Positions 2,755-44,931 of a stretch of 49,729 bases of DNA are shown here, one piece after another (the stretch's first letter is position 1; every line of letters starts with the position of its first letter). The stretch lies in the NCBI GenBank assembly GCA_016203205.1, contig JACQNE010000003.1, positions 1 to 49,729 of the forward strand. Reading direction: 5' to 3'. The position numbers and the translations under genes are program-made. Source of the stretch: Candidatus Woesearchaeota archaeon (GTDB lineage Archaea; Nanobdellota; Nanobdellia; Woesearchaeales; GW2011-AR9). The notes below the pieces were generated by a model. It saw nothing but the letters and a program-made list of their open reading frames with translations. It had not been told where the DNA came from and made no database searches.

Positions 2755-4536
2755 TTATGACAGTTTCAACTGTCGATCTCCAGGGTTATCACTTTCATCA
2801 TCATCTGAAAAAGAGTCTTCATTTTCATCTCCTTCTTTCTCTTCGTCAATTTCTTCTTTTCTCTTCTTTCCTTTTTTGTGTGGGGAATGATCTTCTCCCA
2901 GTGATTCTTCCGGCTCATCTTCCGCGCCAATCCGGGCTAGTTCTGCATCATAGTCTGGATTATCTATTCCAATTTCTTCTAATTCGCCTCGCGTGTGCTC
3001 TAAAATAGCATAAAGATCATCCTCTACTTGTTTCTTCTGGATCTCGCTCAGGCCGACGATGCTTTTGAGGGAGTCGGCTACGTGGGGGATATATTTCTCG
3101 ATATAGCCGCGCTTCTTGGATTCTTCACTGATCCTTCTCCTTTTGTTCACGAAAGAAGCCAGCTTCCGGCCGCATTCCTGCAACGCCAATTTCACTTCTT
3201 TAACAATCTCCGGATAATGGGCCAGTGCTTCTTTTGATTCTGATGTAAACGGCACCCATACCGAGGACATGTGCACGACAATTGTACACGGGCCGACGGG
3301 CAGTGAATTTTTGCTTTGTTGCAGGCCGTATAATCTCCACGTTGTTGCTTGGATGGAATTAGTGATCGCGCATGCTCCCTGCTGATATAACAAAGGCACT
3401 CTGTTGGCAAAACGCAGGATCCGCACTGCCGAATCCCCCTCCTGCTCTCCCCCGTAGGCCAGAGCCGCCTCAATGATAAACGGATTCCCGCGGTAGACGG
3501 CGGGAGGCCGTGTGGTTGAACAATAAAATTCCGCATTGATCTCCTTACGCAGGCCTTTTTCCAGCAGATCAGCAGTGATCGGCGAGATGCAGTCTGTCGG
3601 CGGCGCGATGATTTTTGTTTTTTGGATGCCTTTGTGGAGATTCTCCATCAAGTCGCGGTTCAGATTCTTGGTCTTTGTGGAAGGGAGCAGGCTGGCGTTC
3701 GCGCAGATTTCTTTTGCCGTCCCGGCTCCTACCCGCACAAATTCTTCGGTCAGGAATTGCTGCAGTGTTGATGCTTTTGTCGTCTCCAGCATCTTGATCA
3801 GCATCCCCAATTCCACACCGTAGGGGTGCGGCTTAATTTCCCGAGCCTCCGGTGGAAGCTGCTCTGCGGCTCGCGGGAAGATCATTTGGTTTGCTTCCGG
3901 ATTCGTATAGATGATCGTGCAGTGAGGATTAACTACCGATGTTTCTTTCAGATACTCGTCGACCGACTGTCTTCCTTTCAGATAGGCTCCTTCCATGTCG
4001 ATCTCAATACGCGTCCCGTGATCTTTCTCTTCCCATTCCACTTCTTCCTCTTCGACGACATCAGGGCTGTTTGTTTGAGTATTAATCTTCAACTTCATGC
4101 GAATTGCTTTTTTGCCCTCTCCCGTCTTGGACATGATTGTCGCCGGCTTTCCCGTTGTCAGCTGGCCGTATAATACTGCTGCAGAAATCCCGATTCCTTG
4201 CTGCCCCCGGGTCTGGGCGAGTTTATGAAACTTAGAGCCGTACAACAATTTGGCAAAGATCTTGGGAAGCTGCGCTTTGATGATTCCCGGGCCATTATCT
4301 TCGATGACAATCCTAAATCTGGTTTCTCCCAGTTGGATCAATTCTACATTGACCTCGGGGAGGATTCTTGCTTCTTCGCAAGCATCTAAAGCATTATCTA
4401 CTGCTTCTTTTACCGCAGTCATCAACGCTCGTCGGGGATTGTCAAAACCGAGCAAGTGACGGTTCTTTTCAAAAAATTCAGCAATGGAAATCTCCTGTTG
4501 CTTCTGGGCCAACTCTTCCGCTGTCTTCTGCGCCAT
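2755..4536 (-). CDS. top6B: DNA topoisomerase VI subunit B (GHKL ATPase) with long charged C-terminal tail
   Basis: Bergerat-fold motifs [15 protein letters not shown] and [10 protein letters not shown] are present. The last ~70 aa are an E/D/K-rich low-complexity extension. Confidence 0.93.
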
Positions 4537-4789: not shown

Positions 4790-5377
4790 ATGCGCTTGGG
4801 AATTGATTTGGACGGAGTATTAGCTGAGTTCATTGATTCTTTTTTAGACTTCGAGAATCAACGTTACGGCCTAACATTAACCAAGAACGATGTTCATAAC
4901 TATGATCTTACAACAATTTTAGGTGTTAACCCGCAGCAATTGATTCAAGAATTTAGCTACTTTTATTCCACTTCGGGGTTTTATCATCTTCTTCCCGTTA
5001 CAGGAGCACAATCAGCAACCGAAGAATTAGCCAAAGATCATCAGCTGTATGTCATAACCTCTCGTCCTCCTGAAATTCATCATGCTACAGAAGAATGGCT
5101 TGGCGAACACTTTCCTGCACGGTTTACATCAGTCCATTTTAGTTTGGATTATCTTCCTCAAGCGAAAAGTGAGAGAAAAGAAGATATCTGCCGGGATTTA
5201 GGAATAGATGTGATGATTGATGATTCCATTAAATACTTGAAACACTGCGCACCGTACGTTAAAAAGACTTTTCTCTTTGACCAGCCTTGGAATCAACAAA
5301 GTGAAATTCTTTCTTCTCTTGTGCGTGTAAAGTCGTGGGGAGAAATAATCCAAAATATTCGATCTTCTGAACCATGA
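4790..5377 (+). CDS. HAD-superfamily 5'(3')-deoxyribonucleotidase-like phosphatase
   Basis: MRLGIDLDGVLAEF carries the DxDG motif I at the N-terminus. The start was trimmed from 4733 because the extension reads out of MITE B1. Its stop overlaps the queE ATG. Confidence 0.65.
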   Translation: MRLGIDLDGVLAEFIDSFLDFENQRYGLTLTKNDVHNYDLTTILGVNPQQLIQEFSYFYSTSGFYHLLPVTGAQSATEELAKDHQLYVITSRPPEIHHATEEWLGEHFPARFTSVHFSLDYLPQAKSERKEDICRDLGIDVMIDDSIKYLKHCAPYVKKTFLFDQPWNQQSEILSSLVRVKSWGEIIQNIRSSEP

Positions 5378-6060
5378 AACTTCCCATCTCTGAAATCTAT
5401 TCTGCCGTCCAAGGCGAAGGCCTGCATAAAACACCTGCCATCTTTGTCCGGTTCTGGGGCTGCAATCTCCGCTGCGGCTGGAATCAGAGGAGCGATGGTA
5501 AGACACAGTGCGACACGCCATACGCGGTGTTTGAGGGGACAAAGAGAATGATGAGCGCTGAGGAAGTTGTCGAAGAGATCAAGAGGTTTAAACTAAAGCA
5601 TGTTGTTTTTACGGGAGGCGAGCCAGCGCTGTTCCAGTTTGGATTAAAAGAAATGATAACACAGTTGCCTTCGTATTTTATTGAGATGGAGACAAATGGT
5701 ACAATTCCGATTGATAATGCCGTAGCTCAGCTCATCCAGCAATTTAACATCAGCCCAAAATTAAAAAGCAGTAATCAGTGGGTTGGTTATGGGGATAAAA
5801 GAATACAGTACCCTGCGCTCAAGACATTTCCCCCAGAAAAAAGCATCTTTAAGTTTATTATTACTTCTAAAAAAGATATTAGCGAAATTCGAGAGATAAC
5901 CAAACTGTTTGGTATCCCCGTTTATCTCATGCCGCAAGGGGAAACTAGACAGCAAATCGTGAAGAGCCTGCCAGGATTATTGGAATTGTGCCTCAAGCAT
6001 GGTTACGGTTTTACGAACCGGGATCAGATCATTGCATACGGCAAGAAGAGGGGTGTGTGA
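5374..6060 (+). CDS. queE: 7-carboxy-7-deazaguanine synthase-like radical SAM protein
   Basis: EIYSAVQGEG...FVRFWGCNLRC...CDTPY and FTGGEP resemble the QueE N-terminus and cluster-binding region. Confidence 0.7.
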   Translation: MKLPISEIYSAVQGEGLHKTPAIFVRFWGCNLRCGWNQRSDGKTQCDTPYAVFEGTKRMMSAEEVVEEIKRFKLKHVVFTGGEPALFQFGLKEMITQLPSYFIEMETNGTIPIDNAVAQLIQQFNISPKLKSSNQWVGYGDKRIQYPALKTFPPEKSIFKFIITSKKDISEIREITKLFGIPVYLMPQGETRQQIVKSLPGLLELCLKHGYGFTNRDQIIAYGKKRGV

Positions 6061-6649
6061 TTAGAGATGTCTTAACTTTCTCAACCATCTCCTCCGTTCC
6101 CGCAAAAATATACGCTGTAATCCCCAATTTTCTGGCCACAGTTACATTTTTCTCAGAATCATCAAAATATAAGCATTCTTGCGGATCAAGCTTATTTTCT
6201 TTGAGGACATTCAACCATGCTTTTTTATCCGGCTTGACAAATCCGGTTTCCCAAGAGAAATATGCTTTATCAATAGCTGAAAATATTTTAGGGAAATGTT
6301 TTCTATAATATTCTGTTCTTTCTTTAAAATTATTGGATAGGATAAACACGTTCACTCCTTTTTTGCGAAGTTCTAACGTAAAACGCAGCGCTCTTAGGTC
6401 TATTTTCTCTCCGGAGAACCAAAACGTGAAAAATTCTTTCTCAGAAAGATCCATTCCCCATTTTTGGAGATAAGGTTTCCACAGCGAAAACGCGGGGGGA
6501 GCAGCAGGCTTGCGTACGATTTCCATGATCTCCAGAAGAGCAGGCAGGAATTGCTCTTTGGCAATACTCCATTTTGCCTCCACTCTCAGGTTCAGTAATT
6601 CACTTTTCAGGAAGATCCCATTCAGATCAAAAATAACCGCTTTGATCAT
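6029..6649 (-). CDS. HAD-superfamily hydrolase (motif I reads DLN rather than DxD)
   Basis: MIKAVIFDLNGIF lies at the N-terminus when the ATG at 6649 is used. LSNN and FDDSEKN resemble motifs II/III-IV. It overlaps queE convergently by 32 nt. Confidence 0.65.
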   Translation of the reverse strand: MIKAVIFDLNGIFLKSELLNLRVEAKWSIAKEQFLPALLEIMEIVRKPAAPPAFSLWKPYLQKWGMDLSEKEFFTFWFSGEKIDLRALRFTLELRKKGVNVFILSNNFKERTEYYRKHFPKIFSAIDKAYFSWETGFVKPDKKAWLNVLKENKLDPQECLYFDDSEKNVTVARKLGITAYIFAGTEEMVEKVKTSLITHPSSCRMQ

Positions 6650-42515: not shown

Positions 42516-42998
42516 GTGATTCAATCTAATGCTTTTGATCTAACCGAAGCTAGTACTGATAACAAACTTGCTAGAGAGATACAGCGATATTCTCAAGAAC
42601 AGAAAGAATCATGGCGGCGGATCCCTTATTTGGCCCTCAGTGCAGATCATAGATGCGGCGTTCTTGATACACTTGCTACTGTTTACAATAAAGGATTATG
42701 GGGAGTAGGGAAAAAAGAAAGAAGTTCATATCCAATGTATGTTGATTTGGCAACTGGCATCATAGCCGATCCTGATCATTCTCTTCGAAGAAACGTGATC
42801 GTTCCAGCGAGGCAAGAAGAAGTTTTGATCCTTGCTTCTCATTTAGACCAGATAGATGCAAAAAAGATAGTGGCTGGTTTAGAAGATCTCGCAAAGGAAC
42901 ATTATTCTCCAGACGAGAATGCTTGGAGAAATCAAATAAGAGCTAGGCTTAATCTTTCAGAGATGTATGTCCGACCTTCCGATTGGTCTTATAGATAA
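42516..42998 (+). CDS. hypothetical protein
   Basis: A 160-aa ORF with a GTG start and no recognised motif. Confidence 0.35.
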   Translation: MIQSNAFDLTEASTDNKLAREIQRYSQEQKESWRRIPYLALSADHRCGVLDTLATVYNKGLWGVGKKERSSYPMYVDLATGIIADPDHSLRRNVIVPARQEEVLILASHLDQIDAKKIVAGLEDLAKEHYSPDENAWRNQIRARLNLSEMYVRPSDWSYR

Positions 42999-43017
42999 TT
43001 TTTTGAATGTTGTTAGC

Positions 43018-43192
43018 GTACGTATTAAGTCTGTGCTTGGCGGGTCGGTCTGCCTCGTCTCGCTCGAAAGCGAATAGCAGTTGAACTGAAGAGTTATTCC
43101 TAAAAATGAGCGAGACTCCGGATTTCTGGCTCAAAGCCAGTGCTCGGCAGACCATCTTGACCCAGCCCGCACAGACTTAACTTAATACGTAC
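43018..43192 (+). mobile_element. MITE family A, copy A5 (175 bp)
   Basis: gtacgtattaagtctgtgc...gcacagacttaacttaatacgtac. The flanking octamers ttgttagc and ttgtcggc match at 6 of 8 positions. It is nearly identical in layout to A6. Confidence 0.85.
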
Positions 43193-43257
43193 TTGTCGGC
43201 AATACTTTTATAAAAGAGATGGCTATTTTTGTTCTGCTCCGCAAATTTAAGTTTCAC

Positions 43258-43425
43258 GTGGGCGTGCCGGAGCGGTCAAACGGGATAGTTCGTTTGGCAA
43301 AGGTGCTAAATGAGTCCATACTCAAGTCGTTTGGGTTGTGAGGCTTCCCTCAGAGGTCGATGAAAAACCGTGAGCCATCTATTGGCTTAGTGCCTACGCA
43401 GGTTCAAATCCTGCCGCCCACACCA
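43258..43425 (+). tRNA. class-II-like tRNA (Ser/Leu-type D-arm) with about 80 nt of intervening sequence; anticodon not resolved
   Basis: Acceptor GTGGGCG/CGCCCAC is 7/7 paired. D-arm is CCGG-AGCGGTCAA-ACGG. T-arm is GCAGG-TTCAAAT-CCTGC. A73 and an encoded CCA are followed by T7. The span is 168 nt against the ~88 nt expected for a class II tRNA. Confidence 0.6.
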
Positions 43426-43491
43426 TTTTTTTATTATGTACATCGCATTCACACTAGGAGGGTTGATAAGGGCAGACTGCCCTTATGCGCG

Positions 43492-43533
43492 GTGCCTACG
43501 CAGGTTCAAATCCTGCCGCCCACACCATTTTTT
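43492..43533 (+). repeat. exact 42-bp duplicate of the tRNA 3' end (T-arm, acceptor 3' strand, CCA, T-run)
   Basis: gtgcctacgcaggttcaaatcctgccgcccacaccatttttt is identical at 43390-43431 and 43492-43533. No matching 5' acceptor strand precedes the second copy. Confidence 0.9.
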
Positions 43534-43731
43534 AATTCCCGTCTGGGTAGATCGGCTCAAAAATAAGAAACTTTAACTTGATGACATTGGGGGGCAACCA
43601 CCCCGCAACGCCCTTGTTGTCAGATTGCGGGCGTTCGACTTTATGCTGCTGAGTCCTCTACAGGGACAGGCTCTTAATCGTGAGGTGATGAGTTAGCAAA
43701 ACTTATTATATCCTAAGATAATCTATTGATA

Positions 43732-44931
43732 ATGTTTGGAGACTTTGTGTTTACAAAAAGAATTGATTTAACAACTGTTAATATCCTATTTAATTTTAAA
43801 AGATATTCTACGAGAGATTTTCGTAGCGATTATACGTTAACAAAGAACATCTACTACAAAGAGTGGTTTAAAGACCAGAACGTCCCCACGGAGATTAGGG
43901 AAGATGTAAAACTAGCACAATTCTATGAGCTTGTTTTTAAGAGAGAAATATACCAAAAGATAAGAGCAGGAGAAAAGCTGAAAATATCTTATCATCAGTT
44001 TAAGAAAATAAGTGCCAAGCTCCTCGCGGAGTTTATCTTTTATGTTCTGAGGCAATCTGAATTTAAGCGAGTGATTGAGGGAAGAGATAAAATAATTGTT
44101 AACGTTTCCGTAATGGAAGGAACGGAAGAGGGAACGTATGCTGAAATGATTGAGGGCGATAGTGATTTTCAGAGAATTTCTTTAGATGTCAGTGGAGCAT
44201 GGTTGTTGGGTAGAATTTGTCTTCCATGGATGTTCCTGAAGAAAATAGATTCAGCGTTTCTGTTAAAGACGATAAGCCATGAGTTACAACATTACTTAGA
44301 GTTAACGCGAGGTATTTATCAAAAAGAATATACAGCAATTCAGAAAATAAGTAAATTTATGAGAGTAAATCCGAAGAAGATTGGTGCTCTTCCCGTAGTT
44401 TATGAGATACTTTGTAATTTGTATACGGAAGGGATTGCCGTTTTTCAAGAAAAAAGATATGCAAGATATATAAAATTTGACTTAAACAAGATTGAGCTGA
44501 TTAGAAGAGAAATTGAAGTAATCTCAGTGATGAAAGATAAGAGAAGGGCCCAGGAAAGATACGAACGAGTTTTCCCGGATTCAGAAAGCGGAGAATACTA
44601 TTTAGGCTTTATGATGTGTTTCTGTATTGGACTAAGCTTAGCTCAAAAAGAGAATGCGATTTTAAGTATCTTAGCACCCAGAAAAGAGACCATTCCGTAC
44701 GCTGAACTGAATAGTTATATTCTCCAGAATAGGAACTTTGTGGCTGCTCAACTAAGCCCCAATATATTTGTTAAGACATATACAAAATTGAGCGCAATCA
44801 CTACATTTCAGAAATTTGTAAATGAGTATCTTCATTCTTGCCGCGAACTGGGGTTGGAACAACCAGTACAATTCATTGACAAAAAGTGGATAACGAAAAT
44901 TATTAGGAATACAAAGAGAGCAGGAAAGTAG
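43732..44931 (+). CDS. hypothetical protein with HExxH motif (A+T-rich orphan)
   Basis: SHELQHYLE is the only motif seen. The composition is markedly A+T-rich compared with the flanking genes. It lies 200 bp downstream of the duplicated tRNA end. Confidence 0.4.
   Translation: MFGDFVFTKRIDLTTVNILFNFKRYSTRDFRSDYTLTKNIYYKEWFKDQNVPTEIREDVKLAQFYELVFKREIYQKIRAGEKLKISYHQFKKISAKLLAEFIFYVLRQSEFKRVIEGRDKIIVNVSVMEGTEEGTYAEMIEGDSDFQRISLDVSGAWLLGRICLPWMFLKKIDSAFLLKTISHELQHYLELTRGIYQKEYTAIQKISKFMRVNPKKIGALPVVYEILCNLYTEGIAVFQEKRYARYIKFDLNKIELIRREIEVISVMKDKRRAQERYERVFPDSESGEYYLGFMMCFCIGLSLAQKENAILSILAPRKETIPYAELNSYILQNRNFVAAQLSPNIFVKTYTKLSAITTFQKFVNEYLHSCRELGLEQPVQFIDKKWITKIIRNTKRAGK

What the first reader, a model, noticed from the sequence alone, without database searches (positions are those of the whole stretch)
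43258..43533. Oversized class-II-like tRNA followed by an exact 42-bp copy of its own 3' end
The tRNA at 43258-43425 has perfect acceptor, D and T arms but about 80 nt too much sequence in the middle, and I cannot place a canonical anticodon arm. This implies one or more introns at unusual positions. Sixty nt after it, positions 43492-43533 repeat the last 42 nt exactly: part of the variable region, the T-arm, the acceptor 3' strand, CCA and the T-run. The second copy has no 5' acceptor strand. It is preceded by a perfect 9-bp hairpin (ataagggca gac tgcccttat) and a TATA-like tttttttattat. I see two readings. (a) An attL/attR-type footprint of a tRNA-targeting integrative element that has since been lost or reduced to 60 bp. 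(b) A separately transcribed 3' fragment, as in split-tRNA systems known from Nanoarchaeum and Caldivirga. The identity block starting inside the variable arm and extending past CCA favours (a).
Basis: partly seen in the sequence, partly recalled or inferred. Interest (0 to 1): 0.6.

Follow-up and report, generated by a model that had tools for sequence, protein, structure and literature searches.

The report
Two-intron tRNA-Leu plus mobile-hairpin duplication
The oversized tRNA is an ordinary archaeal leucine tRNA gene with two removable introns, and the extra copy of its 3' end is most likely a scar beside a small hairpin element that hops among tRNA genes of Woesearchaeota, sometimes as a tRNA intron, which bears on the open question of how archaeal tRNA introns spread.

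Summary
Positions 43390-43431 and 43492-43533 are identical (42 nt), and a 10+10 hairpin sits between them.

- **The tRNA.** 43258-43425 is tRNA-Leu(CAA) of a Woesearchaeota (DPANN) genome. It has two bulge-helix-bulge introns: 31 nt at position 30/31 and 50 nt at 37/38. Removing them in silico gives a perfect 87-nt cloverleaf.
- **The second copy.** It belongs to a ~268-nt insertion that is absent from the same locus in two congeneric genomes.
- **The hairpin.** GGGTTGATAAGGG..CCCTTATG is a conserved module, found in 31 of 114 genomes of the family and 49 of 401 of the order. It is almost always at tRNA genes.
  - In one orientation it is a genuine T-loop (59/60) or anticodon-loop intron.
  - In the other it lies just 3' of an intact tRNA and is followed by a copy of that tRNA's 3' part.
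  - tRNA-Leu is its commonest host.
- **At this locus.** I found no integrase nearby, no orphan 5' half, no conserved promoter and no splice motif joining the two copies.

Best reading: a recombination footprint of a small mobile, intron-like module, not a split-tRNA half and not a classical prophage att scar. How it moves is unresolved, and no RNA data could be obtained.

The parts
43205..43216 (+). TATA-like box (TTTTATAAAAGA) of the tRNA promoter, conserved in the G002 orthologue
   Evidence: GCAATACTTTTATAAAAGAGATG is shared by the window and L071
43258..43288 (+). tRNA-Leu(CAA) exon 1: acceptor 5' strand, D arm, anticodon-stem positions 27-30
43289..43319 (+). Intron 1, 31 nt, at position 30/31. 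BHB has central helix GGAU/GUCC, bulges AG|U and AU|A, and a 9-10-bp inner helix
   Evidence: 4/4 central pairs, 10 inner pairs; same intron in G002 and G003 orthologues
43320..43326 (+). Exon 2, 7 nt (A31 C32 U33 C34 A35 A36 G37), carrying anticodon CAA
   Evidence: the intron-less homologue L074 has the same loop
43327..43376 (+). Intron 2, 50 nt, at canonical position 37/38. BHB has central helix CUCA/UGAG and bulges AG|U and CC|A
   Evidence: 4/4 central pairs
43377..43425 (+). Exon 3: A38, anticodon-stem 3' strand, variable arm, T arm, acceptor 3' strand, A73, encoded CCA
43390..43431 (+). Direct repeat, copy 1 (inside the functional tRNA, plus the T-run)
43444..43491 (+). Hairpin module: 5' flank CGCATTCACACTAGGAGG, then GTTGAT, hairpin stem 43466-43475/43477-43486, and junction GCGCG
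43492..43533 (+). Direct repeat, copy 2: variable-arm 3' strand, T arm, acceptor 3' strand, CCA, T-run. No 5' partner
43534..43698 (+). Further inserted sequence 'X', absent from the G002 orthologous site. Its core has C/D-box-like UGAUGA...CUGA and weak relatives elsewhere

Best explanation
**The tRNA.** 43258-43425 is the tRNA-Leu(CAA) gene of a Woesearchaeota archaeon. Its transcript carries two bulge-helix-bulge introns, 31 nt at 30/31 and 50 nt at 37/38. The archaeal splicing endonuclease encoded in this genome would cut them out, leaving an 87-nt class II tRNA with an encoded CCA. The motifs and the cloverleaf are shown; actual splicing is inferred.

**The second copy.** The 42-nt copy is not a gene piece. 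It is the right-hand edge of an insertion: a short trailer, then a ~50-nt hairpin module, then a duplicate of the tRNA's 3' part from the variable loop to the T-run. The hairpin module belongs to a family of small non-coding elements that live at tRNA genes across the order Woesearchaeales.

- In one orientation the module sits inside the T loop (59/60) or the anticodon loop and is a normal, spliceable BHB intron.
- In the other orientation it sits just downstream of an intact tRNA, followed by a copy of that tRNA's 3' part.

**How the duplicate arose (inferred).** It is made when the module arrives. The route is recombination through the tRNA's 3' part. Here the likely source is a filled tRNA-Leu locus such as the paralogous tRNA-Leu(UAG) gene, whose spacer is homologous. 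The functional tRNA ends at the first copy and its T-run. The second copy is a by-product that can be lost again by recombination between the repeats, which would explain the empty sites in close relatives. The enzyme or intermediate that moves the module is not identified.
For: **The tRNA**
- Hand-predicted BHB motifs score 4/4 central pairs at both introns.
- In-silico splicing gives ARAGORN tRNA-Leu(caa), 87 nt, with all stems perfect. The paralogue on C16 gives tRNA-Leu(tag).
- Intron-less homologues in G036 match the predicted mature forms.
- An EndA homologue is present.

**Insertion polymorphism**
- The G002 and G003 orthologues carry the same two-intron gene without the hairpin or the copy. 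Window 43432-43698 has no counterpart in G002.
- The C16 locus is filled, and its G003 counterpart is empty.

**Module family**
- The pattern occurs in 31 of 114 family genomes (reversed-pattern control: 2 hits) and in 49 of 401 genomes across the order.
- The exact 25-mer is in 39 contigs, nearly all labelled Woesearchaeota or Nanoarchaeota.
- Among 66 sequence variants, the stem is kept by covariation: 2.68 extra pairs against 0.85 in shuffles.

**Contexts**
- Of 72 unique sites, about 14-16 are of the tRNA-Leu variable-arm type, about 25-30 of the T-loop 3'-flank type, and 12 lie inside T-loop introns.
- Ten intron copies have perfect BHB geometry (4/4 central, 5/5 outer pairs). ARAGORN finds a tRNA in 8 of the 10 after the intron is removed, of several isotypes including a clean tRNA-Leu(CAG).

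**Spacer homology**
- The spacers of the two tRNA-Leu loci in this genome are homologous: 26/36 identical, matched by 0 of 2000 shuffles. Neither spacer resembles its own downstream flank.
Against: - The mechanism is not shown. No mobilising protein is linked to the module.
- Reverse transcriptase is enriched in genomes that carry the module (21/31 against 30/83, p = 0.003). So is the IS200-type Y1 transposase (17/31 against 26/83, my count). That looks like a general mobile-element load effect and is not corrected for phylogeny.
- The insertion relative to G002 also contains 165 nt ('X') after the second copy. A simple target duplication does not predict this.
- In T-loop-type loci the module's flank UGRG-AAU forms a proper BHB half with the tRNA's own T loop. 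Downstream copies could therefore be real alternative 3' exons in some genes.
- Nine of about 14 tRNA-Leu loci keep the distal copy 100% identical to the proximal one. That could mean recency or selection.
- No RNA data were available.
Confidence: 0.6

Rival explanations
1. Classical attL/attR scar. A tyrosine-integrase element (virus or plasmid) integrated into the 3' part of tRNA-Leu, duplicated its att core, and later lost almost all of its DNA. The hairpin is the element's att-proximal end.
For: - The repeat starts in a loop flanked by a stem (the variable loop here, the T loop in other tRNAs) and runs past the tRNA 3' end, as in SSV1 and pNOB8-type integrations and the Caldiarchaeum model (PMC3293823).
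- Relatives have empty sites.
- Distal copies in some loci differ from the adjacent tRNA or carry an intron that the proximal copy lacks (L003, L029, L048), as expected for attP/attB hybrids.
- Tyrosine recombinases are common in the family: 111 of 114 genomes.
- The tRNA's 3' flank here also holds an orphan gene that is absent from G003.
Against: - There is no integrase in the window. The only one in the assembly is a 271-aa, probably Xer-like (inferred from size and near-universal presence), gene on another contig.
- At all 72 related sites the DNA between the copies is 0-560 nt, and never a full element.
- The left junction of the module varies while the right junction is fixed. Two precise junctions would be expected.
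- Duplications often include locus-specific 3' flank (L002, L009, L023, L063).
- The same module is a bona fide intron in other tRNA genes, in the opposite orientation.
- Viral contigs gave no exact match and one variant match.
- Integrase counts are not higher in genomes that carry the module.
Confidence: 0.2
2. Functional 3' exon. The hairpin plus second copy is expressed, either as a separately transcribed 3' half for trans-splicing (Nanoarchaeum or Caldivirga style) or as an alternative downstream 3' exon reached by read-through and BHB splicing.
For: - In T-loop-type loci the conserved flank UGRG pairs 4/4 with the T loop's UUCR in 11 of 13 well-registered cases, and the distal strand completes the T stem.
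- The distal copies of tRNA-Leu loci covary with their own gene. C21 and C16 differ by compensatory T-stem and variable-stem changes, and both copies in each locus agree.
- A TATA-like TTTTTTTATTAT lies about 30 nt upstream of the hairpin.
- The genome's detectable tRNA set is very incomplete.
Against: - At this locus a scan of every possible register found no sensible BHB joining copy 1 to copy 2.
- None of 32 tRNA-Leu genes has an intron at the variable-loop position.
- Only three loci in the assembly carry the matching 5' acceptor strand plus D arm. Two are complete genes and one is cut by a contig end. No reverse-complement hairpin trailer exists.
- The TATA-like run is missing in C16 and in G002.
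- Congeners manage without the copy.
- Many distal copies elsewhere have damaged T-stem strands (L023, L030, L031, L042).
Confidence: 0.1
3. Assembly artefact. The tandem copy arose by mis-joining reads of two strains at the repeated tRNA end.
For: - The MAG seems to mix two strains. C16 and C28 carry two versions of tRNA-Leu(UAG). C16 positions 4858-5388 are 100% identical to G003, while the rest of the contig is 80-89% identical.
Against: - The window contig shows even identity of about 86-88% to G002 on both sides of the tRNA.
- The same tRNA-hairpin-copy architecture is present in more than 14 independent assemblies from different studies. Related tRNA 3'-end copies next to the hairpin occur in a finished chromosome.
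Confidence: 0.03

Closest known systems
Transposable BHB tRNA introns of Thermoproteales (Fujishima et al. 2010, as summarised in PMC4090602)
   Same: [quoted passage not shown] Distribution is patchy. The mechanism is unknown but thought to act on DNA.
   Different: This is a different phylum (DPANN, Woesearchaeales). The module is defined by a conserved hairpin foot (UUGAUAAGGG/CCCUUAU) with a variable tip. It occurs in both orientations. In most copies it lies outside the tRNA, just 3' of it, with a duplicated 3' tRNA part. To my knowledge that state is not described for the Thermoproteales introns.
tRNA-fragment direct repeats left by integrative elements (SSV1 44-bp att; pNOB8 type; Caldiarchaeum tRNA-Thr model, PMC3293823)
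   Same: There is a direct repeat of a tRNA end next to a reconstituted, functional tRNA gene. Relatives have empty and filled alleles. The two copies can differ in intron content.
   Different: No recombinase gene and no element-sized insert occur at this site or any related site. The intervening DNA is a ~50-nt conserved hairpin module. The left junction is variable. The duplication often includes locus-specific flank.
Split and tri-split tRNA genes (Nanoarchaeum equitans, Caldivirga maquilingensis)
   Same: A free-standing 3' tRNA piece is preceded by a structured leader, in a DPANN archaeon with a broad-specificity splicing system.
   Different: An intact gene for the same tRNA lies immediately upstream. 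There is no partner 5' half, no complementary trailer and no BHB at this locus.
Multiple-intron tRNAs of archaea with relaxed-specificity EndA (PMC5829648, PMC3239211)
   Same: Two introns, one at 37/38 and one in the anticodon stem (30/31), each with an hBHBh'-type motif. DPANN lineages are reported to have many disrupted tRNA genes and incomplete predicted tRNA sets.
   Different: Nothing unusual. This part of the finding is an ordinary member of the class.

Membership tests
Archaeal BHB-intron tRNA gene | Canonical cloverleaf after removal of the intervening sequences | tested here: met
   ARAGORN calls tRNA-Leu(caa), 87 nt, after removing 43289-43319 and 43327-43376. Nothing is found in the unspliced sequence.
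Archaeal BHB-intron tRNA gene | 4-bp central helix flanked by two 3-nt bulges at each exon-intron pair | tested here: met
   4/4 central pairs for both introns. Intron 1 has a 10-bp inner helix. The outer helix of intron 2 is the anticodon stem once intron 1 is removed.
Archaeal BHB-intron tRNA gene | Splicing endonuclease encoded by the genome | tested here: met
   PF01974 hit at 100.6 bits on C13. The subunit type was not determined.
Archaeal BHB-intron tRNA gene | Spliced RNA observed | not testable with these tools
Integrase-mediated att duplication at a tRNA gene | Direct repeat covering the 3' part of the tRNA, with an empty site in relatives | tested here: met
Integrase-mediated att duplication at a tRNA gene | Integrase gene within or next to the repeats | tested here: not met
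   Only one tyrosine recombinase is in the assembly, on C24. None lies between the repeats at 72 related sites.
Integrase-mediated att duplication at a tRNA gene | Element-sized DNA between attL and attR, at least in some members | tested here: not met
   the gaps are 0-560 nt. The largest holds one 166-aa ORF with no family match.
Split tRNA (trans-spliced halves) | Separate 5' half with a matching acceptor strand | tested here: not met
   only C21, C16 (both full genes) and C28 (cut by a contig end). The assembly is 72% complete, so absence is not proof.
Split tRNA (trans-spliced halves) | Complementary leader and trailer forming a BHB at the junction | tested here: not met
Split tRNA (trans-spliced halves) | Own promoter upstream of the 3' half | tested here: inconclusive
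   A TATA-like run is present here, but not in C16 or the G002 locus.
Transposable tRNA introns (Thermoproteales type) | Same short sequence as an intron in tRNA genes of different isotypes | tested here: met
   ten T-loop introns carry the module. ARAGORN names several isotypes for their host genes (including a clean tRNA-Leu(CAG)), though some of its anticodon calls are unreliable because other introns remain. Anticodon-loop copies are in L051 and L064.
Transposable tRNA introns (Thermoproteales type) | The copy under study lies inside the tRNA at a BHB-competent site | tested here: not met
   This copy lies 3' of the tRNA, and no BHB joins the two repeat copies.
MITE or IS200/IS605-type palindrome element | Fixed-length target duplication or none, structured ends on both sides, cognate transposase in the genome | tested here: not met
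   The duplication length varies from about 12 to 69 nt. There is a single hairpin. No Y1 transposase is in G000 or G002.

The most novel reading that the evidence does not exclude
The hairpin module is a self-propagating BHB intron, and its two states are snapshots of intron movement through an RNA intermediate. One state is the spliceable T-loop or anticodon-loop intron. The other is the 3'-flank insertion followed by a copy of the 3' exon plus trailer. One possible route: a reverse transcriptase copies the 'intron-3' exon-trailer' splicing intermediate, then jumps to the 3' end of another pre-tRNA, and the cDNA recombines into the gene. This would explain four things: why the duplication starts at a fixed point (position 60, the 3' exon boundary, at T-loop-type sites; the variable loop in tRNA-Leu) and runs into the trailer, why the right junction is precise and the left one variable, why tandem arrays form, and why some proximal copies lack an intron that the distal copy keeps. 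If so, these loci are the first direct footprints of how archaeal tRNA introns are gained and lost.
Probability: 0.15. Interest if true: 0.85.

Novelty: new variant of a known kind. Interest (0 to 1): 0.55.

Why it matters
**The tRNA part is routine.** It is a useful correction, though. Standard finders see only 7-11 tRNAs in this genome, because most genes are interrupted.

**The duplication part points to something apparently undescribed.** Four literature searches turned up nothing on it. It is a conserved hairpin module, widespread in Woesearchaeales, that exists both as a true tRNA intron and as a 3'-flank insertion with a duplicated tRNA end.

**Why that is useful.** Reviews and a 2026 preprint state that the way archaeal tRNA introns arrive is unknown. 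This family offers many recent filled and empty alleles, two orientations, arrays, and precise against ragged junctions. That makes the question testable by comparative genomics and by RNA work on DPANN-containing communities.

**A practical point for annotation.** 3' tRNA fragments next to this hairpin should not be annotated as split-tRNA halves or as prophage boundaries without further evidence.

Tried and rejected
- **Standard RNA finders.** Default ARAGORN and Rfam at gathering thresholds found nothing in the window. Rfam at E <= 10 on 42900-43800 gave only sub-threshold noise. ARAGORN in intron mode mis-called the gene as tRNA-Phe with one 70-nt intron; I rejected that after hand parsing.
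- **Read-through splicing.** I scanned every register for a BHB joining copy 1 to copy 2. None was sensible. Hand tests of a BHB in the variable arm failed too.
- **Variable-loop introns.** None of 32 tRNA-Leu genes has an intron at the variable-loop position.
- **Trans-splicing partner.** The assembly holds no reverse-complement hairpin and no extra 5' half.
- **Other structural ideas, checked by hand.** I considered a K-turn or C/D-box reading of the hairpin foot. I also considered an acceptor-like pairing of the junction AUGCGCG with the 3' strand. Neither pairing is conserved among loci, so both were dropped.
- **Integrase or cargo.** Pfam and PHROGs on neighbouring ORFs and on the 166-aa ORF in the largest insert (L003) gave nothing relevant. 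An integrase on G126:C33 near a hairpin array is separated from it by a host ribosomal-protein gene.
- **Viral origin.** Viral contigs gave 0 exact matches and 1 variant match. The variant lies at a contig end next to a cellular-looking gene.
- **Encoded CCA as a reverse-transcription mark.** In this genus CCA is present in 3 of 3 filled loci and 1 of 4 empty ones. Elsewhere the pattern does not hold, so it is not used as evidence.
- **Link to a mobilising enzyme.** Reverse transcriptase and Y1 transposase are both enriched in module-bearing genomes, and integrase is not. I judged this confounded.
- **Sequence 'X'.** It does not fold better than shuffles.
Full report
**What is in the sequence**

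- The repeat finder reports 43390-43435 against 43492-43537 as 46 nt at 98% identity. The first 42 nt are exact, and the spacing is 102.
- The 42-mer occurs nowhere else in the 743-kb, 37-contig assembly.
- Between the copies lies a hairpin with arms 43466-43475 and 43477-43486.
- Default ARAGORN and Rfam see no tRNA in the whole window.
- The neighbouring genes include an archaeal-type RNase J.
- Contigs that share the hairpin are labelled Woesearchaeota or Nanoarchaeota.

The host is therefore a DPANN archaeon. The assembly is 72% complete.

**The oversized tRNA**

I parsed 43258-43425 by hand as acceptor GUGGGCG/CGCCCAC, a class II D arm, a variable arm GGC-UUAGU-GCC, a T arm GCAGG/CCUGC, A73 and an encoded CCA. 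The anticodon arm is interrupted twice.
- Intron 1 (43289-43319, 31 nt) lies between positions 30 and 31.
- Intron 2 (43327-43376, 50 nt) lies at the canonical 37/38 position.

A scripted bulge-helix-bulge test gives 4/4 central-helix pairs with 3-nt bulges at both introns, and a 10-bp inner helix for intron 1. Removing the two introns in silico yields an 87-nt sequence. ARAGORN folds it as tRNA-Leu(caa) with every stem perfect, and the unspliced sequence gives nothing.

Comparative data agree. Two congeneric genomes (G002, G003) carry the same gene with both introns. A more distant genome (G036) has intron-less tRNA-Leu(CAA) and tRNA-Leu(UAG) genes that match the predicted mature forms. The genome encodes a splicing endonuclease. 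DPANN lineages are known for heavily disrupted tRNA genes and incomplete predicted tRNA sets (PMC5829648). That fits the 7-11 tRNAs found here by standard tools.

This half of the finding is an ordinary member of a known class.

**The second copy is part of a polymorphic insertion**

BLAST of the window against the syntenic G002 contig shows 86-88% identity on both sides. Window 43432-43698 has no counterpart in G002. In G003 the tRNA is followed after about 50 nt by the RNase J gene.

The assembly holds a paralogous locus on C16, a tRNA-Leu(UAG) with a D-loop intron and a 37/38 intron. It has the same architecture: tRNA, spacer, the same hairpin, then a 37-nt copy of its own 3' end. The G003 counterpart of that locus is empty.

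The two loci differ by compensatory changes in the T stem and the variable stem, and in each locus both copies agree. Their spacers are homologous to each other: 26/36 identical, matched by 0 of 2000 shuffles. Neither spacer resembles its own downstream flank. So the same cassette sits in two tRNA-Leu genes, each flanked by that gene's own 3' part.

**The hairpin is a widespread tRNA-associated module**

- A DNA search of relatives found the hairpin portion of the spacer in many genera, often without the tRNA-Leu sequence.
- The pattern GTTGATAAGGG-N5-13-CTTATG occurs in 31 of 114 genomes of the family, at 1-6 copies each. The reversed-pattern control gave 2 hits.
- A slightly looser pattern occurs in 49 of 401 genomes drawn evenly across the order, in 42 of 258 genera.
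- The exact 25-mer is in 39 contigs of the species-representative collection. Nearly all are Woesearchaeota or Nanoarchaeota MAGs, plus one finished chromosome labelled Omnitrophota.
- Among 66 sequence variants the foot UUGAUAAGGG/CCCUUAU is constant. The tip varies in sequence and length but stays paired: 2.68 further consecutive pairs against 0.85 in shuffles, and 46 of 66 variants have three or more.

A variable stem length argues for a hairpin in single-stranded nucleic acid rather than a duplex binding site.

**Where the module sits**

I examined 72 unique sites.
- **About 14-16 sites** are like the one in question. They lie 3' of an intact tRNA-Leu, with junction CUUAUG-CGCG (or CGGG, CGAA, CGCA, CUAA). 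A copy follows that starts exactly at the variable-arm 3' strand and runs 36-69 nt, often into the 3' flank.
- **About 25-30 sites** lie 3' of other tRNAs. The junction is CUUAUG-UGRG-AAU, followed by the T-stem 3' strand, the acceptor 3' strand and some flank.
- **Twelve sites** lie on the other strand inside a T loop.
- **Two sites** lie inside anticodon-loop introns, one in each orientation.
- **Other arrangements** include tandem arrays of [3' fragment + trailer + hairpin] (L006, L036, L045, L050, L084) and a few solo copies.

For ten T-loop copies the geometry is a perfect BHB at 59/60: UUCR-AA|N ... YGAA-AR|U, with 4/4 central and 5/5 outer pairs. After removal of the intron, ARAGORN finds a tRNA in 8 of the 10, of several isotypes including a clean tRNA-Leu(CAG). 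So in one orientation the module is a real, spliceable intron.

In the 3'-flank orientation the conserved UGRG is complementary to the T loop's UUCR: 4/4 pairs in 11 of 13 well-registered loci, with the distal strand completing the T stem. Read-through transcripts of those genes could therefore be spliced to the downstream copy. About half of the distal copies, however, have a damaged T-stem strand.

**Why I do not read the copy at 43492-43533 as a gene piece**

- A scan of all registers finds no BHB that would join copy 1 to copy 2.
- None of 32 tRNA-Leu genes has an intron at the variable-loop position.
- The assembly contains no reverse-complement hairpin that could serve as a trailer. It has no 5' half beyond the two complete genes and one contig-end fragment.
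- The TATA-like run upstream of the hairpin is simply the tRNA's T-rich trailer. It is absent from C16 and from the G002 tRNA-Leu(UAG) locus.
- Close relatives live without the copy.

**Why I do not file it as a classical prophage or plasmid att scar**

- The window has no integrase.
- The assembly has one tyrosine recombinase, on another contig. Most genomes of the family have several, but none lies between a tRNA and its hairpin-linked fragment.
- The DNA between the copies is 0-560 nt at every site.
- The left junction of the module is ragged, with 0-30 nt of 5' flank retained. The right junction is exact.
- The duplication frequently contains the locus's own 3' flank.

Some features do fit the recombination model of Sugahara et al. 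(PMC3293823). These are distal copies that carry a T-loop intron the proximal copy lacks (L029, L048, the last unit of L006) and a distal acceptor strand that does not match the adjacent tRNA (L003, L048). I therefore keep that model as the main rival.

**How it most likely works**

- **Shown:** the tRNA-Leu(CAA) gene with two BHB introns; the insertion polymorphism; the module family and its dual contexts; the homology of the spacers in the two tRNA-Leu loci.
- **Inferred:** the module spreads by recombination through the 3' part of tRNA genes. The five tRNA-Leu isoacceptor genes share nearly identical 3' halves, which would explain why tRNA-Leu is the commonest host. Arrival creates the duplicate, and recombination between the repeats can remove it again.
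- **Unknown:** the enzyme or intermediate.

Reverse transcriptase genes are commoner in module-bearing genomes: 21/31 against 30/83, Fisher p = 0.003. In this genus the two filled genomes have one and the two empty genomes do not. The G000 enzyme is group-II/DGR-like. However, Y1 transposases are also enriched (17/31 against 26/83, my count). They are absent from G000 and G002. None of this is corrected for phylogeny, so I treat it only as a lead.

An RNA-mediated route would explain the exon-boundary start of the T-loop-type duplication, the trailer copy, the ragged left junction and the arrays. In it, a reverse transcriptase copies the intron-3' exon intermediate and jumps to the 3' end of another pre-tRNA. 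I give that 0.15.

**Loose ends**

The insertion relative to G002 includes 165 nt after the second copy (43534-43698). Its core has weak relatives in G004, G024 and elsewhere in G000, and it carries C/D-box-like UGAUGA...CUGA. It is probably a separate small module, and it shows that this tRNA flank is a general landing zone.

Contig C16 is 100% identical to G003 over its last 531 nt but only 80-89% identical beyond the tRNA. C28 carries a second, G002-like tRNA-Leu(UAG) 5' end. The bin therefore probably mixes two strains, or the tRNA is a recombination breakpoint. This does not affect the window contig.

**Comparison with the known, and verdict**

The closest described phenomenon is the 'large-scale tRNA intron transposition' of Thermoproteales, whose mechanism is still unknown. 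The present family differs in lineage, in its conserved hairpin, in occurring in both orientations, and above all in its frequent extragenic state with a duplicated 3' tRNA part. I found no description of it in four literature searches.

- **Verdict:** observation confirmed; first reading partly supported; a new variant of a known kind.
- **Interest:** 0.55. The tRNA itself is routine. The module family may make the intron-arrival question tractable.

Noticed in passing
window 43018-43192 (five more copies in the window; at least 55 matches in the assembly): A 175-nt hairpin-forming repeat with 13-nt perfect termini lies just upstream of the tRNA promoter and is absent from the G002 orthologous site. 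It has dozens of copies genome-wide, many at contig ends. An earlier agent already treated it as an IS66-related MITE.
   Followed up: partly
window 43575-43660 (inside 43534-43698): A conserved small module with C/D-box-like UGAUGA ... CUGA and a stem AACGCCC/GGGCGUU. It has weak relatives at G004:C33, G024:C91 and G000:C31, none next to a tRNA. It is absent from the G002 orthologous site. It could be an unannotated small RNA or another mobile module.
   Followed up: partly
G000 contigs C16 (4858-5388) and C28 (1-78): There are two versions of the tRNA-Leu(UAG) 5' region in one bin. The C16 end is 100% identical to genome G003 over 531 nt, but the rest of the contig is 80-89% identical. This means either strain mixing or a chimeric join at the tRNA, or a real recombination breakpoint.
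   Followed up: partly
whole assembly G000: Rfam's tRNA model finds 7 tRNAs and ARAGORN finds 3 (11 in intron mode) in a 743-kb genome. Most tRNA genes must carry non-canonical or multiple introns, so standard annotation badly undercounts them.
   Followed up: no
L027 1270-1490; L046, L051, L067, L100 and L108 T-loop introns: A second recurrent intron module (GCAAGTTACAC ... GAGTCGTAYTCAAGTGGG ... CCCACGAC, about 90-110 nt) occurs in T-loop introns of several genomes. It also occurs inside the larger insert of L027, flanked there by a GGGTTGATA repeat.
   Followed up: no
window 43726-44931: The orphan 401-aa gene downstream of the tRNA is present in G002 but absent from G003, where RNase J follows the tRNA directly. 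The tRNA 3' flank is therefore a hot spot for gene-sized insertions as well.
   Followed up: partly
L024 (G007:C7) upstream of 1501: A tandem array of at least 5 hairpin-like units of about 37 nt (GGGGTTGCTTAGGAGGAAGCTCCCTTGCGAAGCAYCT), without tRNA fragments, ends in a canonical copy of the hairpin module.
   Followed up: no
L084 (JACPII010000034.1) about 6440-6620; L117 about 3210-3600: There are three or four tandem copies of a tRNA 3' fragment plus trailer. Only the last junction carries the hairpin module. In L117 a different module occupies the other junctions. Several module types therefore leave the same kind of 3'-end duplication.
   Followed up: no
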